In this document: piece after piece, positions 6,338 through 58,686 of the stretch
How the letters are laid out: every line of letters starts with the position of its first letter
How positions within the stretch are numbered: the stretch's first letter is position 1
Origin: an uncultured Candidatus Saccharibacteria bacterium
Lineage (GTDB): Bacteria; Patescibacteriota; Minisyncoccia; Minisyncoccales; JAGOPM01
DNA length: 58,686 nucleotides
NCBI GenBank assembly: GCA_964596325.1
Contig: CAZQSQ010000001.1
Span: 69,070 to 127,755 of the forward strand
Direction: 5' to 3'
Notes under the pieces: generated by a model
What the model was told of the DNA's origin: nothing
Databases searched by the model: none
Seen by the model: only the letters and a program-made list of their open reading frames with translations
Program-made: the position numbers and the translations under genes

Positions 6338-6423
6338 AAAAAGCAACGGCCACGCAAACAGCCTTGCTTGCCTAATTATACTCTGCCCTCGGCAAATTTA
6401 ATACATTTTTGCCTGTGGAAAAT

Positions 6424-21713: not shown

Positions 21714-21770
21714 ATTCTTAGCTAATAATAACAAAAAACCCCGGCTAAAAGTAGCAAGGGTTGTGAATAG

Positions 21771-29072: not shown

Positions 29073-29208
29073 ACACGTGCCGTTATTCTAGCAAGCCCAT
29101 GGCCTTAAACCAACAGGTAAGTTATCCACACATTTATGAGAATATATTAAAACTTCCTGTCAATTTTATATGTAAAAATCCCCCGAGCTAGTCGAGGGAG
29201 GATTTTTA

Positions 29209-32604: not shown

Positions 32605-32675
32605 GGCTATATTAGCTAATTATACCTTGCTGTTCTCCCGGCCACAAAGTTGCGTTATACAACTTTTGCACAACC

Positions 32676-32702
32676 AAAAATCCCCCTTGCGGGGGATTTT
32701 CA
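32676..32702 (-). terminator. Rho-independent terminator directly after rplK.
   Basis: Minus-strand hairpin AAAATCCCCC-GCAA-GGGGGATTTT followed by TGGTTGTGCAAAAGTTG. Confidence 0.55.
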
Positions 32703-32705
32703 AAA

Positions 32706-39714: not shown

Positions 39715-41292
39715 CTACTCCCCATACCAACCGTAAAGATCATCATAACAATCCTTGGTCAATTTAAGATTTTTGGCGAACTTCTGAAAACAGGCCCGGC
39801 GAGGGCTCATCTGGGTAGAATATTCGCAAACCGAACCAATACCGGAGTTGGGCCCGGCCCAATACCGGCAAGCGGCCAAATTCTCCGCGTATTCGGTCTT
39901 TTTATTCGCCCCCAAAGCAATCAGATACTTGGCCGCCGCGACAAAATTGGTGCAAACATTAAAAGGGCTGTATTTGGCCGTTGTCACACCGAAGATATAT
40001 TTGGCTGAAGCGGCCGTGGCCTCCATTTTAGAACGATAGGTGGAGGGAATAAATTGCACCTGCCCTACTGCACAATTATATGACATGGGCATCGTTCGGC
40101 ACTTGCTGGCAGGTATGGGCGCCTTATCGCAGATGTAGTAAAAATCCTGCCGATCGGATCTTATGGAGGGAGAGCAATTCCCGATGGCATAACCGCCCAT
40201 ATCGCGGCCAAGCTTTGTCTCTTGGGCGGAAATCGCGGCTAAAAATTCTGGTCTAATCGGCAAATATTGGGAAATCCTTTTCGCAATCGCATAAGCCCGA
40301 TCCGCATTGACTTTATACCCTTCAGTAATGGCATTGCTGCACAAAACGCTCAAATTTGTCGGGGTGGGTTTGTCGGGTATTAAATAGACGTATTCCGTAC
40401 TATTCTCAATGGGTGAACTTTGCCACGGCCGCTTCTGCCGGGTAAAAACTCTCAGCTCATATTTTTGGCCGGGCGAAACATTAAATTTCAACGGGATACT
40501 GAACTCCTGAGAGCCCTTGCGCTTGCCATAGCTTATCTCCTTCTTGGCAATATTATCCCCGTAATATTCCACTAACAATTCATATTCGTCACTAGTCCAA
40601 GCAGTTACCCGCCCATTAATTACGGGATTTTTAGTGTCTTTTTTAGTGAAGTAATAAAACTCCGGAACCGGCGAAAAAGGCAAACAAATATCATCTGAAC
40701 CTATGGCCAGACCACCCTCAACATTAAAGGCGGTAGCGCCAATACAAATGCTTTCATTGGGCATCAAACCCTTAAAAACCGTGGAAACCATGACTGTGCC
40801 GCCATCCTTAACCGAATACTGGGTTTTCCCCGGATGGGTAATAATGTATTGGCTTTGCTCTATTCTCTGAATGGTTGAAAGATTATTAAGATTCCGCTCG
40901 GAGTGATAGCCTAATTTTATATAATATTCGGCTTTGGGATTATTGGAAATCATTTTATAGCCGAACGTCACCTTCTTGGTTTTGACATCATATTTTGGAC
41001 TTATCAAATGGATACCAAAACTGTCATGGTTGATATCGGTATAAATGCCGCTGCTTTCTTGGGCTAAAGTCTTTTGCTGGCCTAGACGGTCAATGGCGCT
41101 TTTAATACCCGAAACAGTTTCTGAAGATATTTGGCTATTGTTAGGCCCCGTGGCGTAATAAACTTTATTTGTCGAATCATAGCTGACTTGGGTTTTATTA
41201 TAGATAAAACCACTGGCCAAATCTTGAGCGGCTAAAACGCCTCCTCCCAAAAATATTCCCGCCAAGAAGATAACTGATAATATTTTTTTCAT
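39715..41292 (-). CDS. Secreted protein with a C-terminal lytic transglycosylase (SLT)-like domain.
   Basis: Signal peptide MKKILSVIFLAGIFLGGGVLAA. The C-terminal AISAQETKLGRDMGGY...AVGQVQFIPSTY matches the E-S/T...GxMQ SLT signature. Confidence 0.6.
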   Translation of the reverse strand: MKKILSVIFLAGIFLGGGVLAAQDLASGFIYNKTQVSYDSTNKVYYATGPNNSQISSETVSGIKSAIDRLGQQKTLAQESSGIYTDINHDSFGIHLISPKYDVKTKKVTFGYKMISNNPKAEYYIKLGYHSERNLNNLSTIQRIEQSQYIITHPGKTQYSVKDGGTVMVSTVFKGLMPNESICIGATAFNVEGGLAIGSDDICLPFSPVPEFYYFTKKDTKNPVINGRVTAWTSDEYELLVEYYGDNIAKKEISYGKRKGSQEFSIPLKFNVSPGQKYELRVFTRQKRPWQSSPIENSTEYVYLIPDKPTPTNLSVLCSNAITEGYKVNADRAYAIAKRISQYLPIRPEFLAAISAQETKLGRDMGGYAIGNCSPSIRSDRQDFYYICDKAPIPASKCRTMPMSYNCAVGQVQFIPSTYRSKMEATAASAKYIFGVTTAKYSPFNVCTNFVAAAKYLIALGANKKTEYAENLAACRYWAGPNSGIGSVCEYSTQMSPRRACFQKFAKNLKLTKDCYDDLYGWYGE

Positions 41293-41293
41293 A

Positions 41294-43258
41294 TTATATT
41301 TCTTTAATAGCTTGAATTACGTCCTCATAAGAATAGCCGGTCTTATAGTAGCAATAATTTGATCCGTTTTTCGAAGACCAAACCCTTTTCCGATAAAGTT
41401 CATTAAAACAAAAAGTGAAATCCGAAACACCCGAGGAATAATTTCCATAATCAATAAACAAGCAAAGGGGCTTAAACAGCCAATGTATATGGCCGTGATA
41501 ATATGTTTGTGAGGCCATTTTTTCGGCGCATTCAGTTCTCTTATCTGCACCATCTCCGGAAAGTTTCGTGGCGGAAAATGTCAAACCCTCGCAAACATTC
41601 CAAGGACTGGGCTCGACGGTATAATTCCATAATTTTTTGATATTCTCGCGGGCGGCCACCCGATTAGCCATCCAAGTTCCGGGCATAAACTGCGAAATTC
41701 CCATAGCCCCGCCATAGACGCCGTCAGCCGGAGCCGAAACGCCAACTTCGCCGCGCTTAAGCCCCAATAAAGAGGTAATCTTATAAAAAGTATCGCATTG
41801 CCAGCCGCCCACTTGGCCAAGCTCAAAACACAGCTCGTGCATCGGATAATAATCAGTGGTCGGCTTATGGTTTAAGCCACTCTCCTGCGAGGCAATGCCC
41901 AATAAAAATCCGGGGCGAATGGCCACCTTCTCGGAAATCTGGCGGGCAATCTGCAAGGCCCGGCCCAATTTGACCTTCCCAATTTCCAGCCTCTTTACGG
42001 AGCAAACATTATTATATTTTTGGGTCTTAAAACAAACCCGCTGCCCCTCATTTTGCTTTTCAACTTTACTATCCGTAATGCCGACAATAGCCCGATAACA
42101 ATATTCGGTTCCGGGTTTGGTATTTATCTGCAAAGTTTTATTTTGCGGCCCAGTTAAATAAATTTTTTCTGAATAATTAACTTTTGATGGCTTAGACGCC
42201 TCTATCCAGCGAAATTGCAGATAATACTTTTTATCCGCGAAATACGGCATGGCCTTAGCCTGAAGTTGCGCACTGTTGGCTTTAACCTCAGAGGGCGGCA
42301 TGGTTTTCACCATGGGAATATTCGGGAAACAAACTTTTTGCCCCCAGGTTACTTTTATGGGGTTCAAATAAGTGGCAAAGGGCTGCATACACCAATAATC
42401 GTTGCGCCCGATTGTTTTCTCCGGTTGCTGAGCAATGGGGATATAGCCGAAAGCCTGATGATATTTTGAACCGCCCTTAACCTTAGAATTTAAGACGACC
42501 AGATTGGGCACCCCATCATCCTTCCACCAAAAAAATCCGTAACCAAAATAACGGTCTTTATTACTCACTAAAAAACTGGCATCCAAAATAGCCTTTTGCG
42601 TCTTGGGAAAATACCGGGCGCTTTCCGTAACCACGGCGATTTTATCATCCTCTGAACCACTGGCCCCGCTAGCCTCAAAAGGCGCGAAAGAATCACCTAA
42701 AACCGTAGGAAGGCCGGCAGTATTTGGCAGGCGGTATTTGGGGTTACTGAAAAGATCATCAGGAACGGCCGGATAAATTTGCTCACTGCCCACGCTGCCA
42801 AAATACTCTTCTTGAGAATTCTTTTCGATAAGCGTTTGAGCACAGGCTTGATCGCACTGATCCTTATCAAAATAACAATTACCGCCAAGGTCCTGCTCAT
42901 CTTGGGTCAGCGCCAAATCACAGGAGTGAACATCATTAAATTTATTACCAGTTTCAACGCACTCGCCCCTATCGCTTTGGCAATAATACATAATTGCCGG
43001 ATTCTCCCGATATTCCCCAAACTCATACATCTTCCGGACGCGGTCAACTAAGTTCTTAGCCGTTCGCTCATCTTTGGCCGAATAAATAAAATTATATCCG
43101 TCGATCTTTTCTTGAAAATAATAATAACTACTCGAAGCGTCTTTTTGGATAGTGAAATTTTTATATGCAAAAACATCCTCAGCCGCTGTTTTAGCCAATG
43201 GACTGAAGGCCAATACCAACACAAAAAACACCAGATAAAGGCGCTTATCCATATTCAC
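41294..43258 (-). CDS. Secreted protein with a C-terminal SLT-like domain; a paralogue of the previous gene.
   Basis: Signal peptide MNMDKRLYLVFFVLVLAFSPLAKTAA. The C-terminal GIASQESGLNHK...GAMGISQFMPGTW resembles the downstream gene's ...RISQYLPIRPEFLAAISAQE... Confidence 0.6.
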   Translation of the reverse strand: MNMDKRLYLVFFVLVLAFSPLAKTAAEDVFAYKNFTIQKDASSSYYYFQEKIDGYNFIYSAKDERTAKNLVDRVRKMYEFGEYRENPAIMYYCQSDRGECVETGNKFNDVHSCDLALTQDEQDLGGNCYFDKDQCDQACAQTLIEKNSQEEYFGSVGSEQIYPAVPDDLFSNPKYRLPNTAGLPTVLGDSFAPFEASGASGSEDDKIAVVTESARYFPKTQKAILDASFLVSNKDRYFGYGFFWWKDDGVPNLVVLNSKVKGGSKYHQAFGYIPIAQQPEKTIGRNDYWCMQPFATYLNPIKVTWGQKVCFPNIPMVKTMPPSEVKANSAQLQAKAMPYFADKKYYLQFRWIEASKPSKVNYSEKIYLTGPQNKTLQINTKPGTEYCYRAIVGITDSKVEKQNEGQRVCFKTQKYNNVCSVKRLEIGKVKLGRALQIARQISEKVAIRPGFLLGIASQESGLNHKPTTDYYPMHELCFELGQVGGWQCDTFYKITSLLGLKRGEVGVSAPADGVYGGAMGISQFMPGTWMANRVAARENIKKLWNYTVEPSPWNVCEGLTFSATKLSGDGADKRTECAEKMASQTYYHGHIHWLFKPLCLFIDYGNYSSGVSDFTFCFNELYRKRVWSSKNGSNYCYYKTGYSYEDVIQAIKEI

Positions 43259-43292
43259 TTATCCCTATTTTAGCATTAGTTTTTCCAAGAAA

Positions 43293-43320
43293 AAAACCGC
43301 CCTTCCACAGGGCGGTTTTT
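43293..43320 (-). terminator. Terminator 3 nt after the stop of the giant gene.
   Basis: Minus-strand hairpin AAAAACCGCCC-TGTGGAA-GGGCGGTTTTTTT. Confidence 0.6.
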
Positions 43321-43322
43321 AC

Positions 43323-46300
43323 TTATTTGAACGGTATCGGGTTAGCTGAATCAACCGGCTTGCCGTTAACATAGATGCGCGCTCCGACACAAAATCCGCT
43401 GTTCTTTAGGAATAAATAGTCAGGATTAAAACTATAAATTCCCTTAGAGTCAACTTTGGTCCCGGCGCGGCCCATTTCAATGGCAATGGCTTTATTGTCG
43501 CAAGGATACAAGATGAATTGTGGCTTATAGTTTGCCGCTGTTCCGGCTTTAGCCCCAATGATTTGGGCTTGCATCTTGGAACCGCCATCCCCGGAAGTAG
43601 CGCTCTTAATCATGACTCTTAAGCCACCAGCCTCAAGACATGGCCCCTCATTGGAGAGGATGTATTTGGCCGCTTCCATCTGGCATTTATCATCAAAGGT
43701 TTGGTAATCGTAGGAGCCCGCACTGCTAAGCACCTTGCCGCAGACCTGACTGCAACCCTTGCTGCAACCGCAATCCGATTTGGTTTCCATGCCCGCACCG
43801 CATTGATTGTTCTCAAATTTTTCAGGCATGGCGTCGATTATGTTTTTCTTCAAATAATTTAACTGGGAATGCTCGCGATCAAAACTGAATCTTCCAACGC
43901 CTTCCCGAAGCTTTAATGAATAATATGCGCCAAAGCCCACTGGCTGATATGTATAGAAAATCCCCACTCCCTTATAGCATTCGCAATTAGAGGCACTACG
44001 ATAATTTGGATTGCTCGCCCATCCATTTAGAACTTCCTTAGCTTTTTTGTCAGCTTCCTCTTCACTCTTAAAGCTTGTCTGAGCTGCTTTCCCATTGTCT
44101 AGATTGGAGCCGGTTATTGACACAGCGTATTCGTTGCATACAGGATTATATTCGACAAAATATGACGTTTTGTTGTAGCAGCGTTGCGAGACCTTAAATC
44201 CGTCAATTTGCTGCCAAATATTATCGTCATCGCCCCGACCGCAAGTATTAGTACATTTCTTGATGCCAGTCATTCCTTGCGAAATAGGAGCTAATTTCTC
44301 GCAACAAGTTTGATTAGCTTTCACCACCTCTCCTTCCTTGATGCAAGTTGACAGGTCAACCTTCTTAACACAAACATCATTCTTTAATTCAAACCCTTCA
44401 CAGCATTTTCCAGCGCCAGTCAAAGGAGATTGGCCATCTTTGCCGCATTTTTCGCAAAGAACATTACTACTATCGTAAAACTCCACCAATCCTGTGCAGC
44501 ACGGCAAATCGCTGCCGGCACCCACAACCATAGCCTCGCCTTCTTTAATGCATTGCCTTATAATCTCACAACTCTGCGCATTGAAATTGGTGGCACCGTT
44601 GACTAATTGGACAACCGTTTGGCCGCTGGCCACCGCAGATGATTTGCCAGCTAAAAGTATTGCCCCGCTATTTTTCTTCACCTTTACCTGATATTTAACA
44701 ATCGTCTGATCTTGAAAATCATTAACCGGCACTTCGACAATGCTACCACTAGCGCTTGTATCTACGACATCAGGATTAAGGAAAAGTTTTACGCTTGCAT
44801 TGCGGCATGTATCGGCTTTGAGCGAACAGGTCAGACTGATATTCAGTTCCTGAGTACAATCGTCCTTGCCAAAAGTTACTACATCGGCTCGGACAATCTT
44901 GCCGCCAGCCTCGGCCGCTCCGTAATTTAAGTAAATCATCTGCGTCTTGAATTGGGAATTAAGCGGGGAGGTTCCAAAGGAATCCTTAAGGGTTGACTCC
45001 TGGTAGAATAAATCCGTCTGACCATTATTCCAAGAAATATAATCAATAGTAGCTTGATAAAATGCATTTTTGAAAGCCGTAAAGGCAAATGCGACTGCGC
45101 ATTTCTTAGTTGTACCCTCGCGGACTAAATAATAATCTCCTTTAATTTCGGCGTCACAACCAATAGTCGAATCGAACTTCGGATGACTCTCGCCACTTGA
45201 CGTTTTAACTGAAAATGAATAGGCACTGGGCGCCACCGATGCCCTTATTGGGAAATAAGCATCCCCGCCGATAGCAGTAATAGAGAACGTAATACTCCCT
45301 TCGGCGCTTTCTGGCTTAATACCTGCTGCGCTGACTTTATTAATCTTTGAGTCAACAAATTTCAATAAGACAGACGCTCCTTCTTTTTTGGGGATAAACT
45401 GCATGCCGCCCTTTGCGACCGCTGTCTTGCAATCTTGGACTGCCGCTTCCACAAAGTATAATTGGCCTTCCTTCAAGCTAGAGCAATCACCGGTGTAAGT
45501 GAAAACGGGATTGGCCTTGGTGGGCATTTGGCTTACATGCAATGGCTCCATGGCCCGACCCGCAAAACCGGAAACATTGAACCAAGCATCTTTAATTTTG
45601 CCAGTAGCGGAAATCACCTCGCCGGTAAGCGTAAGCTTGCCATTGACACAAGTGGCAGGAGCAATGGCTTTGACTTGCAAGGCCTCATTGCCAAAATCCC
45701 CCACGCAAGCGCTTAAACAATTCTTTGCCTCGATGGACGGATTAACGGAAACTTTGGCATTCTTGTACGAGACATCAATCGATATAGACACATCGTCATT
45801 AATTAATCCAAGCAGAGTTGAGGTATATCCATTCGAAGCGGTTGGATGCTCAATGCCTTGGAATCTTGAAGGTCCAAGGTTGAACTCCGGCCAAGCGTCT
45901 TGCACCAGCTTTCCATTTGCATCGAACACCTGCGCCTTAATATTGGCTTGGTATTTGCCAGTTTGAGTATCTAAGCACTTCACGTCCGTCATCCAAGCCT
46001 TGATCGTATAGTCACCCTGCCAATTCTTACAAGCTTCCTCAATGGCAGCAAAGGAAAGATTGGTCTGGGCATTATTATATTTGAATTGGATTTCTTTACC
46101 GGTATAAGTGGTAATAGGAGCACTCATTGATATCCAAGTATTACCCAATGAATCGGTCGGAGAGCTGATCTCAACAAAATCAGAAAATATTGTCCCCGGA
46201 ATTGCATAGGAAATCTTGGCTCCGGAAACAAACTTCTCAGCAATTGCCGCCTCTTTTAAGTTGACATTAACTTTAGTACTGAAATTCTTTCCGTCGGCGC

Positions 46301-49300
46301 AGCGAATATCGCTAAAGCTGGCCGTCATATGCAAGCTGGGCAGATTTGCACAATCCTTACTGCAATTAGCCGCAGTTTCTCCTTTGGCCGTATCACAAGT
46401 GCCATTACCACAGCAATGCTTAACCCTCATGCTCAAAGGCAAGAAAGCCGTACCGCCAACCACGGTTCTACCGGTATCAGAAGTAAATGTTTGCACCGTA
46501 TATTTGCCAAAACTGAAAGTGAATGGGTTGGAAGTCAAAATGCTTGGTGTTGTCGGAATAGTGTAATTGGGCAGCCTGACATTGATGGTTTCGCCCGAAG
46601 CAACGCTAATACCGGAAATTGTAATGGAATATCCCGGGGTCTGAGTATTAATATTCCAGAATGCCGGCGCCGTAGTCCTAACGATTCTGCCGTTTTGCAT
46701 ATAAAGCACGTCCATTGAAACATTCTGGCCGAAAATCGGCTTGCCGTTGAATGGGACAAACTTCATCAAAATTTTGACGCACCTGCCAGTCGCTTCACTG
46801 CCTAGCGGAACCTTGCAATTAGTTGAAAGGTTCATACCTGAGGCCACTTGGCATTCGCCAGTAGTTTTGCAATCAGCCGGTGTAGTGAAATTAGAGCTCA
46901 GCCCTCCCTCATTATTGGCATCGACCTCGTATAAATATTTAGTATTGAGAGCCAAATCGCTGAATCTGGCCGTGTATTGGGCCGGATTGCCAATCGTTTC
47001 GCCGGCTCGCTTTGTAGCGATTTTCCGGCCTTGCGCATCAAAAAGCGTAACATTAACGACTGCATTATCAAGAGTGTATTTACCCATGGTTAAAACATCG
47101 CAATAAATATCCACCCCGGGCTTTTCGGTTATATCAATGCAGTGATTCTGCACAGTGCACTTGGAAAATGCCATAGGACCCTTGCTCCCGCACTGCTGAT
47201 TGGCTGTTATGGAATTGCCTCCGCAGTAGAGACCATCTTTGCAATTACCCACCCCTGCTTCGTCTTCACAAGCTTTTTTGTAGACATTGGGCATTTGCAC
47301 GCACTTTTGGGCAGCGTCACAATAAGAATAATTGGATCTTCCGACGCACTTAGAATCCTTGTCGTAGTTGGAAGTACCCCCGCAATATAAGCCATCTTTG
47401 CAGTTGCCCGCGCCTGCTTCGTCTTCGCAGGCTTTTTTGTAAACGTTAGACATCTGTATACAGCTGCCTAAAGAATTGCAATACGAGTAATTTCCCTTTT
47501 GCTCCTGTCTGCAAATTCCATTCGGAGAAACGGCTGATCCGCCGCAATAAGCCACGGGCATGCAATTACCCACCCCTGCCTCATCTTCGCAGGCTTTTTT
47601 GTAGACATTGGGCATATTGATGCAACTGCCTTGAGCGTTGCAATAAGAATAGCTTCCCCTTTGGGCGCAATTTTCAAATTCCACTGGGGAAGAAATATAT
47701 CTTCGCCCAAGCACATTGCCTAAGACCGAGCTACCCGGCTCGTAAAATATTTGGCCGGGGGCACGACAGAAGTCACTGGTGCATTTTACCTTATAAATAA
47801 CAGTCTTTGCCGCGCTATCGTTAGTCAATATTCCGATATTTTGCGCAATAATCGTATCTTGGCCGCTGGGAATCAAAGTGGCTCCGCTTGGCGCGGCGCC
47901 ATCATAAGCGATGCTGCGCCCGCCATAAAGGACAAAATTGGAAATTAATCCAGTGCCCTTTGTTTGCCCTTGGCAAATGGAATCCTCGCCCTCGCAAACA
48001 AATGATAATTTAACATCAGCCGTACAATCACCGGTTTTTGTGGCATCAACATTAACCACCACTCCTCCGGGGACGCGGCACTCTTTATTGCAAGAACCGT
48101 TAGTGTAGCATTTATTGCCGTCAGGAAGCTTGCCAGTTGCCTTGCACGAATTAATTGCACTTAAATCATAAACCTGCGTGCACTTCGGGCCGCAAGCAAA
48201 ATATCCCGTGCATTTACTATTAGCATCGGCGAAACTTGTGCCTCCGCAATAAGAACCATCTTTGCAGTTGCCAGCGCCCGCTTCGTCTTCGCAAGCTTTT
48301 TTGTAGACGTTATTCATGGCAAGGCATTTGCCATAAGCATCGCAGTAGGAATAGTTGCCTAGGGAAGCGCAACCAGCGCAAAGATTGCGCGGATCAATAG
48401 TAATCGTGGCATTGTCCGGCCCGTATTCAGCCTTAAATGTATAAGTCCGAGTAAAGTCTTTTATATCGGTAATATAAACTTTGGCTTGGCCTTGGTAATC
48501 GGTCGGAATGTTTGTCGGATAATACGACGGATTATCTGGCATGGAAATTTTCACGTAACCACCGCCAACCGGCTGAGTTCCTTTGGTCAGAGTAATGACA
48601 TACCAGCCCTCAAATTTGCACCGCGTACACTTTTCGGCAAAAGCCGGATCGCGGGTAATCTTTACGGAATATCCTCCGCCGCATCTTAAATCCTTATCAG
48701 AAGAACTTCCGCCGCAGTATAAACCATTGATGCAATTTCCCTTGCCCGCTTCGTCTTCGCAGGCAATCTTATAAACTCCGGGCATAGAAATGCATTTCCC
48801 GGTCGAAGCGCAGTATGAATAATCACCTTTTTGCTCGCCGGAACATTGCGCATTGGCGTCAACCGCATTTGTTTTAGAGCAATATTGCCCGGGCCAACAA
48901 GTGCCATGCTCGTTTCTGCAAAGACTCTCGCGGATGGTTGCGCTCTTGCATTGGGTTTTACCCAAAGACGCATCGTATTGGCACCAAGATAATAATTTAG
49001 GAGACTCGCAAGCCGCGTTCATATCATACTGGCTCGTGCCGCCGCAATATAAACCTGTTTTACAATTGCCCACGCCTGCCTCGTCTTCACAAGCTTTTTT
49101 CAAAACATTGGACATGGGGACACAGGTACCGTTAACACTACAGTAAGAATAATTGGCCTTTTGGGCGCACATTGAACTGGCAGTATAAGAAGTGCCGCCA
49201 CAGTACAAACCGTCCTTACAATTACCCACGCCTGCTTCGTCCTCACAAGCCTTCTTTACGACGTTAGACATCTGTACACAAGCGCCACTAATGTTGCAAT

Positions 49301-52103: not shown

Positions 52104-52175
52104 ATTTAATTTTAATGTATTGATTTTTATTATAAGGCTATATATTTATTTTCCCCAAAATTATTATCCACAATG

Positions 52176-54332
52176 TTATTTGACGTTTGCAAAAATTATT
52201 GTCGGAAGGCTTCTCAAGTTGGCATTGGTATATCCGTTGCTTCCCGTATACACTTGCCCATTGCGATAAACAAAGGAGGATCCGCCGCCATCCATATCAA
52301 AAGCATCGGTTATTCCGATCTTTTTTAAGAAGGGAACCAATAAATAGGGGTAAGTTTCCGTAGAGACATAAATAAAATAAGCCGTATTTTTGTTGCGATT
52401 TATTCCAAATACCGAGCGCGGCGCCGGATACCCAAGTGCATCAGTATTAATCAAGCCATCGGCCGAGCTGGGATTATTGGAGCTTAAAACCGTTTGACCA
52501 TTTTTCAACAAGGTCGGCTGGCCGCTAAAAATATATTTGCAGGTTTTCCATCTAGCCAAATTCGCCTCATTGTATTGAGCGGGATTCCATTGTAAAGAAA
52601 CCGGCATGCCAACCCTTAAACACCCTTTGCTGTCTTTGGAACAATCCGTTTTGGAAGAATATCTCCCGCTGAAAGCCATGGCATAGCCACCCTTGGGAAT
52701 TGAGCAGGGACCGACTTTGACAGCCGTAATTTTTCCATTAGCAACCGAAATGCAGGTGTGCCTTACATTTGAAGGTGTGGCATTACCCCATTCCTCGGTG
52801 TAAACATTCACATCATTTGACCCCAGTTGCGCATTAACATCAGAGGCGCCAATATTATTTTTACTTGCTGGGAAATTAGGAGAATTAATTTTCAGGTCCA
52901 AAGAAACCCGGAGTCTGGCAATTTCAAATGTTCCATCCTGATGCATACAAAATGCACTGCCGCCACGGTAATAACGAATAAGCTTCCCATTGCGAGCAAA
53001 GGTGCCATCCGGCAACAAATAATAATCCGAGCGGAAATTATTATTAAAAAATAATCCGGTCATGCCTGCGTCCACGCCGGCATTGCGGGCGACTGTCCCT
53101 GGAGCCGCCCCCTTAAAGAGCCTATTCTCCACAAGCCACAAGCCAATTTCGGCACTTGCCTTGTCGGAATTATCTATAACTACATATCTTCCCGAGAGCC
53201 CATTCTCGTCAATGTTTTTGAAAGTAATTACATTGGCTGGTTTTGATGGAATATTTTTTCCAGTAGTGCAGTCGTCAATCTTGCCCTGATCCGAACCCTT
53301 GGAAACCTTCCCTGTCTTGTCCTGCAGCCTTATTTCAAAGCAATACCTAGCATCGGTGGGCAATCCTTCGGCCACGCCGGACAAATTGGCCGAAGCATTC
53401 AGCCTGTCCTTTACCCCGAGATACTTATAAAACTTCTCGTTTTGCGGCTGACTGCAAAGATAACCCAGAATCCAAGCCTTGGCCGGAGTGCCGGAGCCGG
53501 GATTTTCGATATTACCCTGCACTGAAATTGTTGTGCCGCTAGCCGAACACTTTATATCTCCAAATTTCACACTTGCGGGTTTCGGGACTGCCTGTTCTTT
53601 GGTAGTCTTTTTAATCTGAACATCAATTAAATATTTGCTTTTCAAAAATAAATTGGGATAGAAAATCTCCACTTTGCCGTTTTGGCGGAAAATTCTCTTG
53701 CCTAAAGAAAAAACTAAACTTGTTTTATCCAAAGGCTTCACGCTCAGCTCCGCCTCCACATCTTGCCCGGCTTTAATGTTACGCGCATCGGCATTGATTT
53801 CTGTCCCGGCCGAGCCACTCCAATAACGAACCACCTCGATTTCCGGTTCCCCGCTGGCGCAAATGTAAAATGGTCGGGTATTCTCAAAATATTTGTTACT
53901 GTTCCGATCCACTAGCCAAACCTTGCATACCTGCCCGGCAAAATCCTCCAAATTAAAATTAAATTCGGGGCTGGTAAAATTTCCCGGAAAAGAGTAATTA
54001 GAGCGGAATAAAACTTTCTCGCTCGCCACATCCCCATTCAAAGCAAAATAGCTGCTATTCACGCAGGCAAGACGAAACTGGATATTTTTGAAAGGCAGCG
54101 GCTTCTTCAGATTAAACTTTACAAAATTCTGCCCATTATAAGCGCAGCCATCAAGGGCTTTATATTTTGTCGCAGCCGTAGAGATGGAAACATCCTTGAT
54201 TTCATTTCCGATCTGGATTGAAGAGATGTAGTCATTTAAGGTTCCGCTAAAACCCAAAGAGGTTTTTGGGAATACCATAAAACCAAATATCGCCAACGCG
54301 AAAAAAATTTTCGGAATGTTAATCCCCCTCAT
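52176..54332 (-). CDS. Secreted protein with a C-terminal phosphodiester glycosidase (DUF2233/NAGPA-like) domain.
   Basis: Signal peptide MRGINIPKIFFALAIFGFMVFPKTSLG. The C-terminal ...GINRNKNTAYFIYVS...AFDMDGGGSSFVY... contains the DGGGS motif characteristic of DUF2233. Confidence 0.55.
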   Translation of the reverse strand: MRGINIPKIFFALAIFGFMVFPKTSLGFSGTLNDYISSIQIGNEIKDVSISTAATKYKALDGCAYNGQNFVKFNLKKPLPFKNIQFRLACVNSSYFALNGDVASEKVLFRSNYSFPGNFTSPEFNFNLEDFAGQVCKVWLVDRNSNKYFENTRPFYICASGEPEIEVVRYWSGSAGTEINADARNIKAGQDVEAELSVKPLDKTSLVFSLGKRIFRQNGKVEIFYPNLFLKSKYLIDVQIKKTTKEQAVPKPASVKFGDIKCSASGTTISVQGNIENPGSGTPAKAWILGYLCSQPQNEKFYKYLGVKDRLNASANLSGVAEGLPTDARYCFEIRLQDKTGKVSKGSDQGKIDDCTTGKNIPSKPANVITFKNIDENGLSGRYVVIDNSDKASAEIGLWLVENRLFKGAAPGTVARNAGVDAGMTGLFFNNNFRSDYYLLPDGTFARNGKLIRYYRGGSAFCMHQDGTFEIARLRVSLDLKINSPNFPASKNNIGASDVNAQLGSNDVNVYTEEWGNATPSNVRHTCISVANGKITAVKVGPCSIPKGGYAMAFSGRYSSKTDCSKDSKGCLRVGMPVSLQWNPAQYNEANLARWKTCKYIFSGQPTLLKNGQTVLSSNNPSSADGLINTDALGYPAPRSVFGINRNKNTAYFIYVSTETYPYLLVPFLKKIGITDAFDMDGGGSSFVYRNGQVYTGSNGYTNANLRSLPTIIFANVK

Positions 54333-54465
54333 GTATATATATTTGCTTTAATTATAAAGAAATTTTTCCAAGACAACAAACAATTAGCAGTGGAAAACTG
54401 TTAAAAATCAACCCCTTAACGGCAACACCTGAAATTTTCCAAGGCTAACTGATTGCCAAAACAAA

Positions 54466-54487
54466 GAGCCGGGAATACTCGGCTCTT
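54466..54487. terminator. Hairpin that may terminate the vWA gene (minus) or an unannotated transcript.
   Basis: AGAGCCG-GGAATACT-CGGCTCT, followed by TTTTATGATTTG on the plus strand and TTTGTTTTGG on the minus strand. Confidence 0.35.
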
Positions 54488-54530
54488 TTATGATTTGAAA
54501 TTCGGATTTAATTTTCGAATCTTCCCCTTA

Positions 54531-54610
54531 TTTGACACTTGGATTTAATCTTTGTCCCATGTTTTTTATTTGCCATTTGTCCTTTGACATTTGGATTTGT
54601 CCTCTGTCCT
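54531..54610. repeat. Intergenic direct repeats: two copies of TTTGACAyTTGGATTT plus 3-4 copies of TTGTCC.
   Basis: TTTGACACTTGGATTT at 54531-54546 and TTTGACATTTGGATTT at 54584-54599, matching 15 of 16 positions. TTGTCC occurs at about 54552, 54577, 54597 and 54605. The array lies in a 445-bp non-coding gap. Confidence 0.6.
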
Positions 54611-54777
54611 CTATTTCTTAATATTTCCCCTTTTGGCCAATGATCTCTTGCTCATATGCGATATCCCTTGGCTTTGCCGGGGCGGTTTAGCAGTCTGCTG
54701 ATAGCGCGAGTTATTAGAAAATCTTCCCTTAGGGGACAAAGGATGCAATGTTGATGGTATTTTGGCCATAATAAATA

Positions 54778-57700
54778 TTATTTAATAGAAAAATTTACAG
54801 AATTATTTTGAATTGTCTGGGTTTGGGGCTGCCTGAAAGAATCGTTAAATTTGAATTGGAAGGGAAAAGTTTCCAAGTATTTTTTATAAACATCTATGGC
54901 TTGCAATTTCGGCAAAGAACTTTGGTATTGAATGTTAACCTTGCCAGTCTCACCGGACTTATATGTTTTACCCAAAATCACCTCAAACCCACGGGCCGGA
55001 TAGGTAATGGTTTTTAATGCATAAGGATCGGCGAAAAATCCGAAAAATTCGGAAGGATGATATCCGAGTAATTTTGCATCTTGGCACTCGCCGCCAACAT
55101 CGGCATAGCGCTTGGCCTCAAGTAATTTTTGCACCAAACTGGAACCATCGGTATCCGCGGCTTCGAGGACCAAAATTTCTTTATTGTTCTCGCGCATCAT
55201 TGCTTGGATTTGTTCAAAAAACTCATCGGCCGTCACCCTTTCCGCAGTCGGTACATTATATTTAATAACTACAACCTTGGCTTTTAAGACATCGGTCAGC
55301 CAAATAATCCGCCCATAAGCATCTTCCAAAGCCTGGGCCGGATTGTGCAGGCCATCACAAGTAGTATTGGAGGCGCCATCAGAAAGCAAAATAACCAATT
55401 TATTATTCCTGGAACCTTGCAAAGTGTTATAGGCGGCTTTTAAGCCCGAGCATATATTGGTGTTGGACTGATAAGTGCCTTTATAATCAGCGCTGGTAAT
55501 CTTTGAACAATCGGCCTGATTGCCGAAAATTTCTCCCATGGCCCGATCAATGGAAATTTGAACTTGGGGAATATTATTATTTAACTGGCTGGCCATGTAA
55601 GAAAGATTGCAAAAATAAACCAAAGAAGCGCTGTATAAATTAGATTTTTGATTATAAAGGGAAAGGCTGTTGAGGAACTGCCCGATCGAGCGATTGGCGC
55701 TACACAAAGATCCGCTATTAACCATTGTCCCGGAAGTATCGACAACAACGGCGATATCCAAAGGCTGGCTGGCTTGAGTTTTGCATTCTATGGGCACACT
55801 CATTTGCAAACAAGTGCCCTCGCTAAACTTGCTATTTTCTCCCATGGATTGGCCGTCTTTTTCGATTAAATAGTCGCGGCCATCTTTAGCGCTGGTAAAA
55901 ATCGCCTTAGAGGCTAAATCGTTAATAATCGGCCGCTCCAAAACCGCCGGCTCTTTGAATTTCACTTTGTAATTAAATTTATAAGGCGTTTTGGCGCTAA
56001 TCTTAACATTCACAAACCCCGTGGCCGCATTGCCCTGATTAATCGTGGTTACCTGCGAGTTGCCCACCGGCGGATAAACTGGTGAGCCGATAATTTCTAC
56101 GTCGGAGCGCAAAACGTCGTAAACCTGCTTAATGAGCGTTTGGCCCGGGCCAAAACAAGAAACCGCCACCTCGACATCATATTCGTTTTTGCATTTTACG
56201 GGCGTAATAGTTCTCTTGATTTTTGGCTCGCAAGTTTGGCAATCTTGATTGGCAAAACTGCTCGTTTGGTAGAGTGAATAGGCCCGGCCGCCAAACATTA
56301 CTTGCGATTTATCCTGATTGACAGGGATATCGTCTCCGGGCATATCGAAAGCGACACCATATTCATAAGATATGGTTTGGCCGTCCAAGAAGGTTTTATC
56401 CAAGAGATTGAGCTGCAAATATTTCAAACTCCCCCCATTCATCGCTTCCCAATAATTTATCTCGTGGTCAATCCTCTCGGGAATACCTTTAAGCGTTCCG
56501 GGGATATAGCGCGCCGGTAATTTTTTATATACCCGAGCAAGGGAAGTTTTGTAAGCCGAATCGTTTTCATTGAAGGCAAAAAAATAATCGCTGATAGAAA
56601 CGCCATCACAAGCTTTGCCCGCGGGATCTTTGCATTTGATTTCGACTGAAACTTTAGCTTTATTAGAACAATCGGCAAAAGGCGTCACGCTCTTTTTTAT
56701 TTCCACTTCCGGCGCCAGCACGCCCTGCCGGCAATTAAACTCATTGAGGGCATAGCAGGCTTTGTCCCGGCCAAAACCGGCGGTCAATTTATCCATGGCC
56801 AGGGTGGCGGCCATTGTCGTAGTGTTATTGCCCATTATGGTCGGCTTTGCAAATTGCAGGGAATATTTTAACACTTGGGAGGCTTTTTCGGGCAAGGAAT
56901 AAGGCACAAAAAATTTCAGCTTTCTTGAAGCGGCGTCAAAGGAGATATTTTTAGCTTCAAGCTTCTGGTCGCCAAAATACGCCAAAGAGCCTATCTCCCA
57001 ATAAACATATTCGGGCAGCTCCACGGTGGCTGTAAAATCTTTACATTCTTTTCCCAAATTGGCATTGCAGGTAATTTCCAGAGAGGCCTCGGCTTTGGTA
57101 GCGCACTGCTCGAATTTCGAATCAAAACACCTCAGGCCGAGGCTGGGCTTTTGGCCGGAGCAGCTGGCTTCAGAAAGACACTGGTCGTCAAATTCAATGG
57201 GCGAAGGCAGGGCAATCTCACCATTGGGCAAATACAAATTAAGATAAGGCTGCCCCTCGCTCTTCTCAACCGCGCCGATAAAGGCGCCTTGCGCCTTAAG
57301 AGTAAAACACCTCTTCTGCTCCGCCTCGCCAATTTCTTTATTAACCACCCAGGGCATAGCCACATCTGTGCGGTTAATGGAATCATTCCATTTTATTTCC
57401 GCCGTATTGTCATTTTTCATTACGGTCAGACCGTTAAAAATGGAATAATGCGATTGCCAGCCCGCGCACTCGCGGCTGGCCAGCTTGGCATTGGATAATT
57501 CGCCGGGCGCTTTATCAAAGCAAGATCCGGTTTCGCATATCTCAAAAGTGCACGGATCAATATTGCGGCAAGCCGCCGTAACCTGAGTCTGGGGAAGGTA
57601 AAATTCCGGCTGCTTTTCCACGAAACGTTTAGGTACTGTCGGAGTAGTTGCGCAATCGGCATAGGCGTTGGGCGAGCCCGCTTCCTTTTGCAAAATATCG

Positions 57701-58686
57701 CGAATGCGCTCAAAAAGCTCATCGATTTTTTTAATATTATAAAACGCCCCGCCCGAACCAAGCGATAGAGAGGACATCACTTCCCCATCAATACTGATCG
57801 GAGTTAAAAAACTTTTTTTACTCCGCGGGTCGGTATACCAAGCCATTTTGGGCGCCTCCCCGGGTTTGGGCATGGCACCCAAACCAATGGTATAAATTCT
57901 GGTATTATTAGCCTTGGCCAAAGCGGCAATCTGCTTGGCCATACTTATCATCTGGCTGCGATTGGCGCAAAAATAAAAACTTCCTCTCTTGCAAACCAAA
58001 GAGCTGTTTTCATTGCCGTCGGTAAACAAAATAACCACCTTTTGATAACCGTTTTGGCGCGCCACCTGATAAATTGCCCTTTTGGCCGCGTCAAAAAGCG
58101 CGGTGTCGCCTTGCGCCTTTAGGCCGTTGATAGCAGTGCTGACTTTGGTCAAATCGCCGGTCGGCGACAAAATGGTTGTTTTCGTGTCAAAAGAAATCCC
58201 CTCAATGGCGACTTTATCCTGGGAAGAAATCAGTTTGCTGCCAAAATCAACCACATCTAAAAAAGTTAACTTGGCCAAACTGAGCTTATTGTCAAAAGCC
58301 ATGGACCCGGAATTATCAATAGCCATGGCAATAGCTAATTTTTTCTTAGTGCCCTGCGCCACGCACTGTAAGGGATTGAAATTCTTTCCGGCAAAGATGC
58401 TATCCAAATATGTTTTAGCCTCAGGTAAACCGGAAAAATTCTTAGCCCCGCCCACGCTCTGGCCGGCAATTCTGGCCGGATCCTTGCAGGAACTATCGGT
58501 ATAAAAAATCAAAGCGCTTTTTCGCTTGTCAGCGCTGAAGTAACAGCATTGTTTTTCATTGCGGATCGGGCAATAATCCTCTTTGATAGCCACCTCAATT
58601 TTATAATTAGGCCTCAGGGTTGGCGTCAAATTTACGTCTTTAATGAAAACTTTGAACTTGTTATTGACCACATCGCCCCGCCCGCC
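54778..58686 (-). CDS. Large protein with two von Willebrand factor A (vWA) domains; partial, with its 5' end probably beyond the window end.
   Basis: The frame is open to the window edge, and the first in-window Met is at 58671. MIDAS motif 1 is LAIAMAIDNSGSMAFDNK...VVILFTDGNENSS. MIDAS motif 2 is LDIAVVVDTSGTMVNSGS...LVILLSDGASNT. Confidence 0.7.
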   Translation of the reverse strand, partial: GGRGDVVNNKFKVFIKDVNLTPTLRPNYKIEVAIKEDYCPIRNEKQCCYFSADKRKSALIFYTDSSCKDPARIAGQSVGGAKNFSGLPEAKTYLDSIFAGKNFNPLQCVAQGTKKKLAIAMAIDNSGSMAFDNKLSLAKLTFLDVVDFGSKLISSQDKVAIEGISFDTKTTILSPTGDLTKVSTAINGLKAQGDTALFDAAKRAIYQVARQNGYQKVVILFTDGNENSSLVCKRGSFYFCANRSQMISMAKQIAALAKANNTRIYTIGLGAMPKPGEAPKMAWYTDPRSKKSFLTPISIDGEVMSSLSLGSGGAFYNIKKIDELFERIRDILQKEAGSPNAYADCATTPTVPKRFVEKQPEFYLPQTQVTAACRNIDPCTFEICETGSCFDKAPGELSNAKLASRECAGWQSHYSIFNGLTVMKNDNTAEIKWNDSINRTDVAMPWVVNKEIGEAEQKRCFTLKAQGAFIGAVEKSEGQPYLNLYLPNGEIALPSPIEFDDQCLSEASCSGQKPSLGLRCFDSKFEQCATKAEASLEITCNANLGKECKDFTATVELPEYVYWEIGSLAYFGDQKLEAKNISFDAASRKLKFFVPYSLPEKASQVLKYSLQFAKPTIMGNNTTTMAATLAMDKLTAGFGRDKACYALNEFNCRQGVLAPEVEIKKSVTPFADCSNKAKVSVEIKCKDPAGKACDGVSISDYFFAFNENDSAYKTSLARVYKKLPARYIPGTLKGIPERIDHEINYWEAMNGGSLKYLQLNLLDKTFLDGQTISYEYGVAFDMPGDDIPVNQDKSQVMFGGRAYSLYQTSSFANQDCQTCEPKIKRTITPVKCKNEYDVEVAVSCFGPGQTLIKQVYDVLRSDVEIIGSPVYPPVGNSQVTTINQGNAATGFVNVKISAKTPYKFNYKVKFKEPAVLERPIINDLASKAIFTSAKDGRDYLIEKDGQSMGENSKFSEGTCLQMSVPIECKTQASQPLDIAVVVDTSGTMVNSGSLCSANRSIGQFLNSLSLYNQKSNLYSASLVYFCNLSYMASQLNNNIPQVQISIDRAMGEIFGNQADCSKITSADYKGTYQSNTNICSGLKAAYNTLQGSRNNKLVILLSDGASNTTCDGLHNPAQALEDAYGRIIWLTDVLKAKVVVIKYNVPTAERVTADEFFEQIQAMMRENNKEILVLEAADTDGSSLVQKLLEAKRYADVGGECQDAKLLGYHPSEFFGFFADPYALKTITYPARGFEVILGKTYKSGETGKVNIQYQSSLPKLQAIDVYKKYLETFPFQFKFNDSFRQPQTQTIQNNSVNFSIK

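What the first reader, a model, noticed from the sequence alone, without database searches (positions are those of the whole stretch)
39715..58686. A 19-kb run of five co-oriented genes for giant secreted proteins that could form a cell-surface apparatus
The five consecutive minus-strand genes are:
- two paralogous SLT-domain (lytic transglycosylase) proteins;
- a 2926-aa protein of tandem Cys-rich modules;
- a DUF2233/NAGPA-like (phosphodiester glycosidase) protein;
- a protein of more than 1297 aa with two vWA domains.
All have signal peptides and none has a housekeeping role. Their spacing is tight (2-nt, 64-nt and 72-nt gaps) apart from one 445-bp repeat-bearing gap. The combination of cell-wall cutters, an adhesin-like repeat giant, MIDAS-type binding domains and a glycosidase looks like a dedicated envelope-spanning attachment or cell-wall remodelling system. 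I do not recognise it as any described secretion or pilus system. In a small-genome, possibly episymbiotic, organism this would be a candidate host-attachment apparatus.
Basis: partly seen in the sequence, partly recalled or inferred. Interest (0 to 1): 0.7.

Follow-up and report, generated by a model that had tools for sequence, protein, structure and literature searches.

The report
Surface-protein gene island in a Paceibacterota genome
The five genes are real and do encode exported giant proteins and sugar-cutting enzymes of a tiny, probably symbiotic bacterium, but they look like a fast-changing island of separate surface proteins, a kind already described in such bacteria, rather than a new multi-part machine.

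Summary
Five minus-strand genes at 39715-58686 encode two paralogous GH103-type lytic transglycosylases, a 2926-aa protein (6.3% Cys, 14 six-Cys modules), a NAGPA/DUF2233 glycosidase and a two-vWA protein that runs off the window (1374 aa in full). Each has one N-terminal signal-like segment.

The "dedicated apparatus" reading is not supported:
- The run has no ATPase, membrane platform, pilin or sorting signal.
- Two conserved terminator hairpins followed by conserved -10 elements split it into at least three transcription units.
- 31 of 32 window genes share the strand, so co-orientation says nothing.
- The vWA gene is absent from the same locus in a relative (GyrB 95% identical).
- The giant's middle and the NAGPA catalytic half are swapped between lineages.

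The organism is a Candidatus Paceibacterota (CPR) MAG. The run extends upstream to 7 genes here, and to 10 in a 957-kb relative, including a sortase. Only the transglycosylase-pheS adjacency is deeply conserved (five lineages).

Best reading: a lineage-specific, recombining island of independently exported adhesin-like and glycan-cleaving proteins. Clusters of this kind are known in CPR genomes since 2016.

Modest new points: an N-terminal domain shared by the giant and the glycosidase, and an unmatched six-Cys module.

The parts
39715..41292 (-). SLT1: 525-aa exported protein. It has a variable beta-rich N-terminal part and a C-terminal GH103-type lytic transglycosylase domain (residues ~320-482 = window 39847-40335), with the catalytic Glu358 in 'AQETKLG'.
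41294..43258 (-). SLT2: 654-aa exported paralogue. The likely true start is the ATG at 43252, giving 652 aa as in the relative. The SLT domain is residues ~411-590 (window 41489-42028), with the 'SQESGL' and 'GAMGISQFMPGTW' motifs.
43292..43320 (-). Intrinsic-terminator-like hairpin (12-bp stem followed by a T-run) between the giant gene and SLT2. It is near-identical in the close relative L008 and in the distant L009, and is followed by a conserved TGnTAAAAT (-10-like) element.
43323..52103 (-). GIANT: 2926-aa exported protein, 6.3% Cys. Its parts are a signal peptide, the N-terminal domain shared with the NAGPA protein (residues 8-188 = window 51540-52082), an Ig-like region (424-494), the six-Cys module array, a beta-rich region and a Cys-rich C-terminus.
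47115..50231 (-). Region of the giant that holds 14 copies of a ~52-aa six-Cys module (two subtypes). The relative has 13 copies, a 53-codon indel.
52176..54332 (-). NAGPA protein: 718 aa, exported. It carries the shared N-terminal domain (residues 6-160 = window 53853-54317) and a C-terminal phosphodiester glycosidase domain (530-713 = window 52194-52745) with the DGGGS motif at 681-685.
54463..54488 (-). Terminator-like hairpin inside the 445-bp gap. It is conserved with compensatory changes in L015 and L005. Downstream lies a conserved TATAAT-containing promoter-like element ahead of the NAGPA gene.
54611..54769 (-). Conserved 52-aa basic ORF directly after the vWA gene. It differs from the relative by 10 synonymous and 2 conservative codon changes. 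It is absent together with the vWA gene in the L005 lineage.
54778..58686 (-). vWA protein, cut by the window end (full length 1374 aa, with a signal peptide, in L001). vWA domain 1 is window 57874-58332 with MIDAS DNSGS. vWA domain 2 is window 55291-55770 with DTSGT.

Best explanation
This is a lineage-specific, fast-evolving island of separately expressed, Sec-exported surface or extracellular proteins of a Candidatus Paceibacterota (CPR) bacterium. It is not a machine.

Shown:
- Each product has a single N-terminal signal-like segment.
- The two SLT proteins carry a GH103-type lytic transglycosylase domain with its catalytic Glu.
- The 718-aa protein carries a NAGPA-type glycosidase domain with the family's DGGGS motif.
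- The vWA protein has MIDAS-type motifs: DNSGS in domain 1 and DTSGT in domain 2.
- The giant, and an upstream membrane-anchored 1259-aa protein, are built from six-Cys modules and Ig/Fn3-like domains.
- The giant and the glycosidase share a ~160-aa N-terminal domain.

Inferred:
- The Cys modules form disulfide-stiffened stalks that hold binding domains (vWA, Ig-like) away from the cell.
- The shared N-terminal domain is a common retention or docking module that places the giant and the glycosidase at the same site.
- The glycosidase and the two transglycosylases cut phosphodiester-linked GlcNAc polymers and peptidoglycan glycan strands at the cell-cell interface with a host (or in the cell's own wall), easing attachment or nutrient access.
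- The locus upstream of the conserved SLT-pheS junction acts as a hot spot where such genes are gained, lost and recombined.
For: Domain content and motifs: and PMC13474241 for DGGGS.

Organism and context: a Paceibacterota MAG, with pheS, pheT, gyrB, nusG and L11 immediately downstream.

Extension of the run:
- Upstream lie UP_726 and a >1253-aa Cys-rich protein with a C-terminal transmembrane anchor.
- In the 957-kb relative there are also a Cu_amine_oxidN1 protein, a sortase and a CAP-domain protein.

Fast evolution relative to neighbours, in the ERR3438382 lineage: GyrB 95%, PheS 82.5% and PheT 76%, against SLT1 54%, giant 35-42% in patches, and NAGPA 58% (N-terminal part) and 30% (C-terminal part).

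Mosaicism:
- P0002 is 95% identical to the window NAGPA protein over its first 120 aa but 25-34% in the catalytic half, where it matches P0003 at 60-86%.
- The giant's module array is absent from the L004 and L005 giant fragments and differs by one copy in the closest relative.
- The vWA gene is present or absent between lineages.

Shared N-terminal domain: hhalign probability 96%, E 3e-9.

Separate transcription units: conserved hairpins plus -10-like elements.

SLT immediately upstream of pheS in five lineages, down to PheS 44% identity.

Rarity: 3, 1 and 1 matches for NAGPA, SLT2 and vWA among 5.8 billion proteins; 42 matches for SLT1 among 1.84 billion representatives.

Precedent: clusters of large Cys-rich extracellular proteins in CPR (PMC4736985), and CPR lytic transglycosylases proposed to act on host envelopes (PMC11665869).
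Against: - There is no expression, localisation or activity data.
- Signal peptides are judged from hydrophobicity only.
- Gene order is kept in the two nearest lineages, which is also what a functional unit would show.
- A vWA-containing Cys-rich giant sits in the equivalent locus of a distant relative (L012). This could mean vWA binding and the SLT enzyme do belong together.
- The docking role of the shared N-terminal domain is pure inference. Its AF2 model was unusable (pLDDT 46).
- The host, if any, is unknown, so host-directed and self-directed action cannot be separated.
Confidence: 0.55

Rival explanations
1. Own-envelope housekeeping. The two transglycosylases and the NAGPA enzyme remodel the bacterium's own peptidoglycan and wall polymers during growth and division. 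The giants are structural surface-layer or sheath components. There is no host-directed role.
For: - An SLT gene sits directly upstream of pheS-pheT-gyrB in five lineages, down to PheS 44% identity. That fits an old, vertically inherited core gene.
- dN/dS is as low as for PheT.
- GC content matches the surroundings.
- GH103 enzymes such as MltB are housekeeping enzymes in model bacteria (established knowledge).
Against: - The SLT proteins diverge much faster than the housekeeping neighbours: 54% identity against 76-95%.
- Their N-terminal halves are not alignable beyond the genus.
- The NAGPA catalytic half is swapped between lineages, and the vWA gene is gained or lost. That pattern is more typical of interaction or conflict proteins.
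Confidence: 0.2
2. One reading: the five proteins assemble into one dedicated attachment or cell-wall-breaching apparatus, encoded as a single operon.
For: - Spacing is tight (1, 64 and 72 nt) and all products are exported.
- The order NAGPA-giant-SLT-SLT is conserved in relatives at GyrB 98% and 95% identity.
- The giant and the NAGPA protein share an N-terminal domain that could mediate co-assembly.
- A vWA giant lies upstream of SLT-pheS in L012.
Against: - Conserved terminator hairpins, each followed by a promoter-like element, lie after the vWA gene and after the giant gene.
- The vWA gene is absent from the ERR3438382 lineage locus.
- The run has no energising or membrane-embedded component.
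- The run does not stop at five genes.
- The components are replaced by unrelated giants at GyrB ~75% identity.
Confidence: 0.1
3. Sortase-assembled pilus or sortase-anchored adhesin locus, with the vWA protein as a tip adhesin, as in Gram-positive pili.
For: - A sortase gene (Pfam Sortase, 55 bits) lies about 9 kb upstream of the vWA gene in the 957-kb relative.
- vWA domains with MIDAS motifs are typical of pilus tip adhesins (established knowledge).
- There is a weak match to the 'marine sortase target' model (26.9 bits against a cut-off of 551.65).
Against: - None of the six exported proteins has a C-terminal LPXTG-like motif followed by a hydrophobic segment and a basic tail.
- No pilin-like backbone subunit was found.
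- The NCBIfam match is far below its cut-off.
Confidence: 0.03
4. Mobile element, prophage or polymorphic-toxin cassette that was recently acquired.
For: - The proteins are extremely rare in databases.
- The NAGPA protein has a mosaic architecture, with a constant N-terminal half and a variable C-terminal half.
Against: - There are no PHROG matches except a generic vWA stretch.
- No relatives were found in viral contigs.
- No integrase, transposase or tRNA was found in the Pfam-scanned genes of the window.
- GC content matches the rest of the window.
- The locus is in the same position, next to pheS, in several lineages.
Confidence: 0.02

Closest known systems
Clusters of large, cysteine-rich extracellular proteins in CPR genomes (Peribacteria; Anantharaman et al. 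2016, PMC4736985)
   Same: - Small CPR genome.
- A run of very large signal-peptide proteins, some with 6-7% Cys (giant 6.3%, upstream protein 6.95%).
- No functional annotation.
- Strain-level variation, here a module copy-number change and gene gain or loss.
- A proposed role in attachment.
   Different: - A different phylum-level lineage (Paceibacterota).
- The Cys module here has no Pfam or PDB match and was not shown to be related to the Peribacteria proteins.
- Here the giants are interleaved with recognisable glycan-cleaving enzymes (GH103 and NAGPA) and a vWA protein.
GH103 lytic transglycosylases (E. coli MltB/Slt35, P. aeruginosa SltB3)
   Same: The catalytic Glu in an E-S/T motif and the GAMGxxQF(I/M)P motif align to the solved enzymes (E 3.5e-8).
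   Different: - Only about 125 of the 292 Pfam model positions are matched.
- Scores are at or below the Pfam cut-off.
- There are long, variable beta-rich N-terminal extensions.
- The two paralogues lie in tandem, next to pheS.
- Activity is untested.
NAGPA / DUF2233 phosphodiester glycosidases (human uncovering enzyme; Bacteroides DUF2233)
   Same: The Pfam NAGPA match is well above its cut-off, and the strictly conserved DGGGS loop is present.
   Different: The domain is fused to a ~400-aa N-terminal region that includes a domain shared with the giant. The substrate in bacteria is unknown. Relatives carry DGGAS.
NAGPA-containing multi-domain proteins of Bacillota, interpreted as conflict systems (lipocone paper, PMC12419801)
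   Same: NAGPA is combined with diversifying extracellular binding domains. Recombinational variety between close relatives is read there as an arms race.
   Different: No TelC/lipocone or NlpC/P60 domain was found here, and the enzymes are on separate polypeptides.
Essential surface adhesins of Saccharibacteria found by Tn-seq (Wang et al. 2023, PMC10633639)
   Same: CPR surface proteins with glycan-binding or adhesive domains, implicated in epibiotic growth.
   Different: No sequence relationship was tested or seen, and no genetic evidence exists for this locus.

Membership tests
GH103 lytic transglycosylase (Pfam SLT_2; MltB/Slt35) | Profile match at or above the curated cut-off | tested here: inconclusive
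   SLT1 scores 24.9 bits against 24.3 (just passes). SLT2 scores 18.8 bits (fails). NCBIfam MltB models are far below their cut-offs. A family profile hits the solved SltB3, Slt35 and MltB structures at E 3.5e-8 to 1e-5.
GH103 lytic transglycosylase (Pfam SLT_2; MltB/Slt35) | Catalytic glutamate in the E-S/T motif, plus the G-x-M-G-x-x-Q-F motif | tested here: met
   E358 is invariant in 14 sequences. G410, Q413 and P416 are invariant and F414 is nearly invariant (at least 90%). These positions align to the corresponding residues of 5ao8.
GH103 lytic transglycosylase (Pfam SLT_2; MltB/Slt35) | Cleaves peptidoglycan glycan strands, forming 1,6-anhydroMurNAc | not testable with these tools
   Needs an enzyme assay.
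NAGPA / DUF2233 phosphodiester glycosidase | Pfam PF09992 match above the cut-off | tested here: met
   55.8 bits against 25, covering residues 530-713 and model positions 6-166 of 169.
NAGPA / DUF2233 phosphodiester glycosidase | Invariant DGGGS sugar-phosphate loop (PMC13474241) | tested here: met
   'DMDGGGSSF', residues 681-685. The relatives P0002 and P0003 have DGGAS.
vWA domain with MIDAS | Pfam VWA match above the cut-off, in two copies | tested here: met
   57.7 bits, 2 stretches. The second copy is also seen with VWA_CoxE and BatA models at weak scores.
vWA domain with MIDAS | DxSxS motif | tested here: met
   Domain 1 has D196-N-S-G-S200. Domain 2 has D1055-T-S-G-T, a Ser-to-Thr variant. 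The downstream Thr and Asp MIDAS residues were not formally aligned.
Sortase-assembled pilus / LPXTG-anchored adhesin locus | C-terminal LPXTG-like motif, hydrophobic segment and basic tail on the substrates | tested here: not met
   No such C-terminus in SLT1, SLT2, the giant, NAGPA, vWA or UP_726. The upstream Cys-rich protein has a C-terminal transmembrane segment with a long tail and no LPXTG.
Sortase-assembled pilus / LPXTG-anchored adhesin locus | Dedicated sortase adjacent to the substrates | tested here: inconclusive
   A sortase gene is present in the relative's run but lies about 9 kb upstream of the vWA gene.
Secretion or pilus machine (T2SS/T4P/T4SS-like) | ATPase, membrane platform, and pilin or channel components in the cluster | tested here: not met
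   Pfam and NCBIfam show none in the run or in its 10-gene extension.
Single operon | No internal terminators or promoters; one transcript | tested here: not met
   Two conserved terminator-like hairpins, each followed by a conserved -10-like element. This is sequence-level evidence only, with no transcript data.
CPR cluster of large Cys-rich extracellular proteins (PMC4736985) | Clustered proteins over 1000 aa with a signal peptide and about 5-9% Cys | tested here: met
   The giant has 6.3% Cys and the upstream protein 6.95% (both >1000 aa). The vWA protein (1374 aa) has 2.8% Cys. SLT1, SLT2 and NAGPA have 2-2.8% and UP_726 has 1%, and these four are 525-726 aa. The criterion is therefore met by two of seven members.
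CPR cluster of large Cys-rich extracellular proteins (PMC4736985) | Sequence homology to the Peribacteria proteins | not tested

The most novel reading that the evidence does not exclude
The ~160-aa N-terminal domain shared by the giant and the glycosidase is a CPR-specific docking 'handle'. It fixes interchangeable cargo (adhesive stalks, alternative NAGPA catalytic domains) at one surface site. Together with the deeply conserved tandem GH103 enzymes next to pheS, it forms a recombining toolkit for breaching a host cell wall. That would be a modular, polymorphic-effector-like system without a dedicated secretion machine.
Probability: 0.15. Interest if true: 0.6.

Novelty: new member of a known kind. 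Interest (0 to 1): 0.3.

Why it matters
How CPR/Patescibacteria attach to hosts and feed on them is largely unknown outside a few cultured Saccharibacteria. This locus is a concrete, well-delimited candidate set for a Paceibacterota lineage:
- two transglycosylases with intact catalytic motifs,
- a glycosidase with an intact DGGGS loop,
- a MIDAS-bearing vWA protein,
- two disulfide-rich stalk proteins.

It also shows where the variation lies: the module array, the catalytic-domain swap, and vWA gain or loss. The value is as a candidate list and as an example of how such islands evolve. It is not a new class of machine.

Tried and rejected
- AF2 model of the NAGPA protein from a 4-sequence alignment: pLDDT 46.5, unusable, so no fold search was run on it.
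- AF2 model of two six-Cys modules, using paralogous repeats as the alignment: pLDDT 67, beta-hairpin plus helix. Foldseek against the PDB gave nothing (best E 7.7). A profile against PDB sequences also gave nothing.
- The afdb50 fold library was not available.
- PDB sequence searches for SLT1 alone, the giant, the vWA protein, UP_726 and the NAGPA profile: no hits.
- An 8-sequence SLT alignment was too divergent to seed the genome scan. The 3-sequence version found only the 957-kb relative. The metagenome scan with UP_726 found only the same contig.
- Rosetta-stone idea, that the L012 1777-aa vWA giant carries the shared N-terminal domain: only a motif-level match (hhalign probability 24%), and the domain HMM does not detect it. 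Dropped.
- Similarity of the giant's C-terminus to the L012 829-aa protein: weak (E 7e-4 over 50 aa). Not relied on.
- The giant's module HMM does not detect the upstream protein's modules. Their relationship rests on BLAST at 27% identity only.
- First attempt at overlapping 3-module windows: MAFFT aligned them by overlap, so the alignment was discarded.
- PHROGs and viral contigs: negative. Rfam and tRNA scans of the window: nothing.
- Promoter and terminator counts in the region are no higher than in shuffled sequence. Only the two conserved hairpins are given weight.


Full report
**What is there.** The gaps are 1, 64, 72 and 445 nt. The last ORF has no upstream stop before the window ends. 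On an identical public contig (JGI 3300022666, L001) it is 1374 aa and starts with a signal peptide.

**Domains.**
- Pfam gives SLT_2 at 24.9 bits for SLT1 (cut-off 24.3) and 18.8 bits for SLT2 (below cut-off). It gives NAGPA at 55.8 bits and VWA at 57.7 bits with two stretches.
- The weak SLT calls are rescued by a family profile (alignment A1). It hits the solved GH103 enzymes SltB3, Slt35 and MltB at E 3.5e-8 to 1e-5, across the catalytic Glu and the GAMGxxQF motif. That Glu (E358 of SLT1) is invariant in 14 relatives.
- SLT1 and SLT2 are paralogous only in their C-terminal 185 aa (29% identity).
- The NAGPA protein carries DGGGS (residues 681-685). A 2026 structural paper describes this loop as strictly invariant in the family (PMC13474241).
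- The vWA protein has DNSGS in domain 1 and DTSGT in domain 2.
- The giant has 184 Cys (6.3%) and 14 copies of a ~52-aa six-Cys module in two subtypes.
- Each protein has exactly one hydrophobic segment, at its N-terminus. None has another transmembrane segment or a C-terminal LPXTG-type signal.

**Are the genes real, and is the run more than chance?**
- Against a ~91%-identical relative, all cluster genes have dN/dS of 0.04-0.09. PheT is at 0.064.
- Co-orientation means nothing here: 31 of 32 genes in the window are on the minus strand and GC skew is negative throughout.
- Eleven of 32 genes have signal-like N-termini (ten flagged, plus the truncated vWA). My own rough estimate is that five such genes in a row is only borderline unlikely (about 0.1).
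- The run does not stop at the window edge. Upstream lie a 726-aa exported protein with no Pfam match (UP_726), whose stop overlaps the vWA start. Further upstream is a >1253-aa protein with 6.95% Cys, about 15 related six-Cys modules, Fn3-like and DUF11 domains and a C-terminal membrane anchor.
- In a 957-kb relative the same-strand run also includes an exported Cu_amine_oxidN1 protein, a sortase and a CAP-domain protein. That makes ten genes, about 30 kb.
- So a surface-protein island is real, but the five genes are not its natural boundaries.

**Organism and setting.** The nearest genome is 'MAG: Candidatus Paceibacterota bacterium isolate SO_2017_LW4_116' (JBAZJI010000001.1, 957,374 bp). 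Immediately downstream of SLT1 are pheS, pheT, gyrB, secE, nusG, L11 and nucleotide-metabolism genes. GC content of the run equals that of its surroundings. There are no PHROG matches beyond a generic vWA stretch, no relatives in viral contigs, and no tRNA or Rfam hits. This is chromosomal, not mobile.

**How rare are the proteins?**
- The NAGPA protein has 3 relatives among 5.8 billion proteins.
- SLT2 and vWA each have one, the 94-95%-identical orthologue.
- SLT1 has 42 matches at E<1e-3 among 1.84 billion cluster representatives, and 5 at E<1e-10.

**Conservation of order.** Percent amino-acid identity to the window is.

| Lineage (loci) | GyrB | PheS | PheT | Cluster genes |
|---|---|---|---|---|
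| 957-kb relative (L008, L014, L015) | 98 | 97 | 94 | 92-97, same order |
| ERR3438382 (L005 + L009) | 95 | 82.5 | 76 | UP_726 73; NAGPA 58 (N-terminal part) / 30 (C-terminal part); GIANT 35-42 in patches; SLT1 54; a second SLT protein 24-30 |
| L011 | 76 | 71 | 56 | a fragment like the giant's C-terminus, then one SLT (36), then pheS |
| L012 (GCA_040961665.1) | 74.5 | 62.5 | 45 | see below |
| L016 | - | 44.5 | - | an 876-aa SLT protein again directly before pheS |

- In the ERR3438382 lineage the order is NAGPA-like(777 aa)-UP_726-NAGPA-GIANT ... GIANT-SLT-SLT-pheS. There is no vWA gene between UP_726 and NAGPA.
- There, the UP_726 stop is followed directly by the GAGGACA-type repeats that in the window follow the 52-aa ORF. 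So vWA plus that small ORF behave as one indel.
- In L012 the order is: a relative of the upstream Cys-rich protein's C-terminal part, then a different 1777-aa Cys-rich giant with one vWA domain, then two unknown proteins, then an SLT (26-29%), then pheS.
- A more generic SLT relative (P0012) sits elsewhere.
- The SLT-pheS junction is therefore old. What lies upstream of it turns over.

**Mosaic structure.**
- The NAGPA relative P0002 is 95% identical to the window protein over its first 120 aa. Identity falls to 25-34% in the catalytic half, where P0002 is 60-86% identical to P0003 from another lineage.
- L004's giant is 75% identical over its first 555 aa and then diverges. It lacks the window's module type.
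- The closest relative has 13 modules rather than 14, a 53-codon gap.
- The giant (residues 8-188) and the NAGPA family (residues 6-160) share an N-terminal domain: hhalign probability 96%, E 3.3e-9; BLASTP E 3e-6.
- An HMM of that domain finds only giants and NAGPA proteins among 619 ORFs of all fetched loci.

**Transcription signals.**
- A 12-bp GC-rich hairpin with a T-run lies between the giant gene and SLT2 (43292-43320). It is near-identical in the close relative and in the distant L009, although the flanking genes have diverged strongly. It is followed in all three by TGnTAAAAT.
- A second hairpin in the 445-bp gap (54463-54488) is kept in L015 and L005 through compensatory changes (GCCG/CGGC to GCTG/CGGC and GTCG/CGAC). 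It is followed by a conserved TATAAT element before the NAGPA gene.
- The 72-nt NAGPA-giant gap holds a conserved TATAATAAAA.
- Overall counts of promoter-like and terminator-like sites do not exceed shuffled expectation. Only these conserved elements carry weight.
- They argue for at least three units: (UP_726-vWA-small ORF), (NAGPA-GIANT) and (SLT2-SLT1).

**Interpretation.** The best reading (confidence about 0.55) is an island of independently expressed, Sec-exported surface proteins.
- Disulfide-rich modular stalks (the giant and the anchored upstream protein) would present Ig-like and vWA binding domains.
- A phosphodiester glycosidase and two lytic transglycosylases would act on wall polymers and peptidoglycan at the cell surface, plausibly of a host.
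- The shared N-terminal domain may co-localise the giant and the glycosidase.
- The catalytic and binding motifs are shown. Localisation, substrates, the docking role and the host are inferred.

The main rival (about 0.2) is that the enzymes serve the cell's own wall. The deep conservation of SLT next to pheS fits that. The fast divergence, domain swapping and gene turnover fit it less well. A sortase-pilus reading fails on the missing sorting signals. A mobile-element reading fails on context.

**Comparison with the literature.**
- Clusters of large, signal-peptide-bearing, often very Cys-rich extracellular proteins with strain variation were described in CPR Peribacteria in 2016, including a 14-gene cluster, and were proposed to act in attachment (PMC4736985).
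- A 2024 perspective notes that CPR lytic transglycosylases have been proposed to compromise host envelopes (PMC11665869).
- Tn-seq in a Saccharibacterium found several essential surface adhesins (PMC10633639).
- NAGPA domains combined with diversifying binding domains have been read as conflict systems in Bacillota (PMC12419801).
- This locus is therefore a new member of a known kind.
- Its modest new points are the shared N-terminal domain, the swap of catalytic halves, a six-Cys module without a Pfam or PDB match, and the conserved SLT-pheS anchor with a variable upstream region.

**Limits.**
- Structure prediction failed for the NAGPA protein (pLDDT 46.5) and was only moderate for the module (pLDDT 67).
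- Signal peptides were judged by hydrophobicity only.
- There are no transcript, localisation or activity data.
- Only five lineages could be compared, several on short contigs.

Noticed in passing
window 54611-54769 (-): A 52-aa, very basic ORF (MAKIPSTLHPLSPKGRF...KRGNIKK) lies directly after the vWA stop. Against the 957-kb relative it shows 10 synonymous and 2 conservative codon changes, so it is probably a real small gene. It has no Pfam match. It is absent together with the vWA gene in the L005 lineage.
   Followed up: partly
window 29168-32704: A 3.5-kb segment encoding a 1131-aa exported Peptidase_S8 protein is absent from the close relative L008, where L11 is followed directly by the dCMP deaminase gene. 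Its GC content is lower (0.38-0.41 against 0.44-0.47), suggesting recent gain or loss of another large secreted protein.
   Followed up: partly
window 54494-54620: Three degenerate ~38-nt direct repeats lie between the 52-aa ORF and the terminator hairpin. Their core on the coding strand is AAATCCAAnTGTCAAA. Relatives carry other short repeats at the same spot (GAGGACAG..., and TGTCTAA four times in L005). Function unknown.
   Followed up: partly
window 1-58686: 31 of 32 genes are on the minus strand and GC skew is negative across the whole window, showing an extreme gene-strand bias.
   Followed up: no
window 1-6346 and 16908-21734: There are further exported proteins unrelated to the cluster. 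An ORF open to the window start carries a signal peptide. Big_13, Big_5 and Dockerin_1 domain proteins lie at 2093-6346. A 1608-aa signal-peptide protein with no Pfam match lies at 16908-21734.
   Followed up: partly
L015 2685-3413 and 1498-2583 (957-kb relative, upstream of the run): A sortase gene and a CAP-domain membrane protein open the same-strand run. No LPXTG-type substrate was found among the downstream giants.
   Followed up: partly
L009 10078-10443: A 121-aa 23S_rRNA_IVP-family gene sits between pheS and pheT in the ERR3438382 lineage but not in the window.
   Followed up: no
window 34417-36348 (gyrB) vs L008: Synonymous divergence of gyrB from the close relative (dS 0.98; 86.7% nt identity) is two to three times that of the neighbouring genes (dS 0.25-0.48). 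This possibly reflects recombination at gyrB.
   Followed up: no
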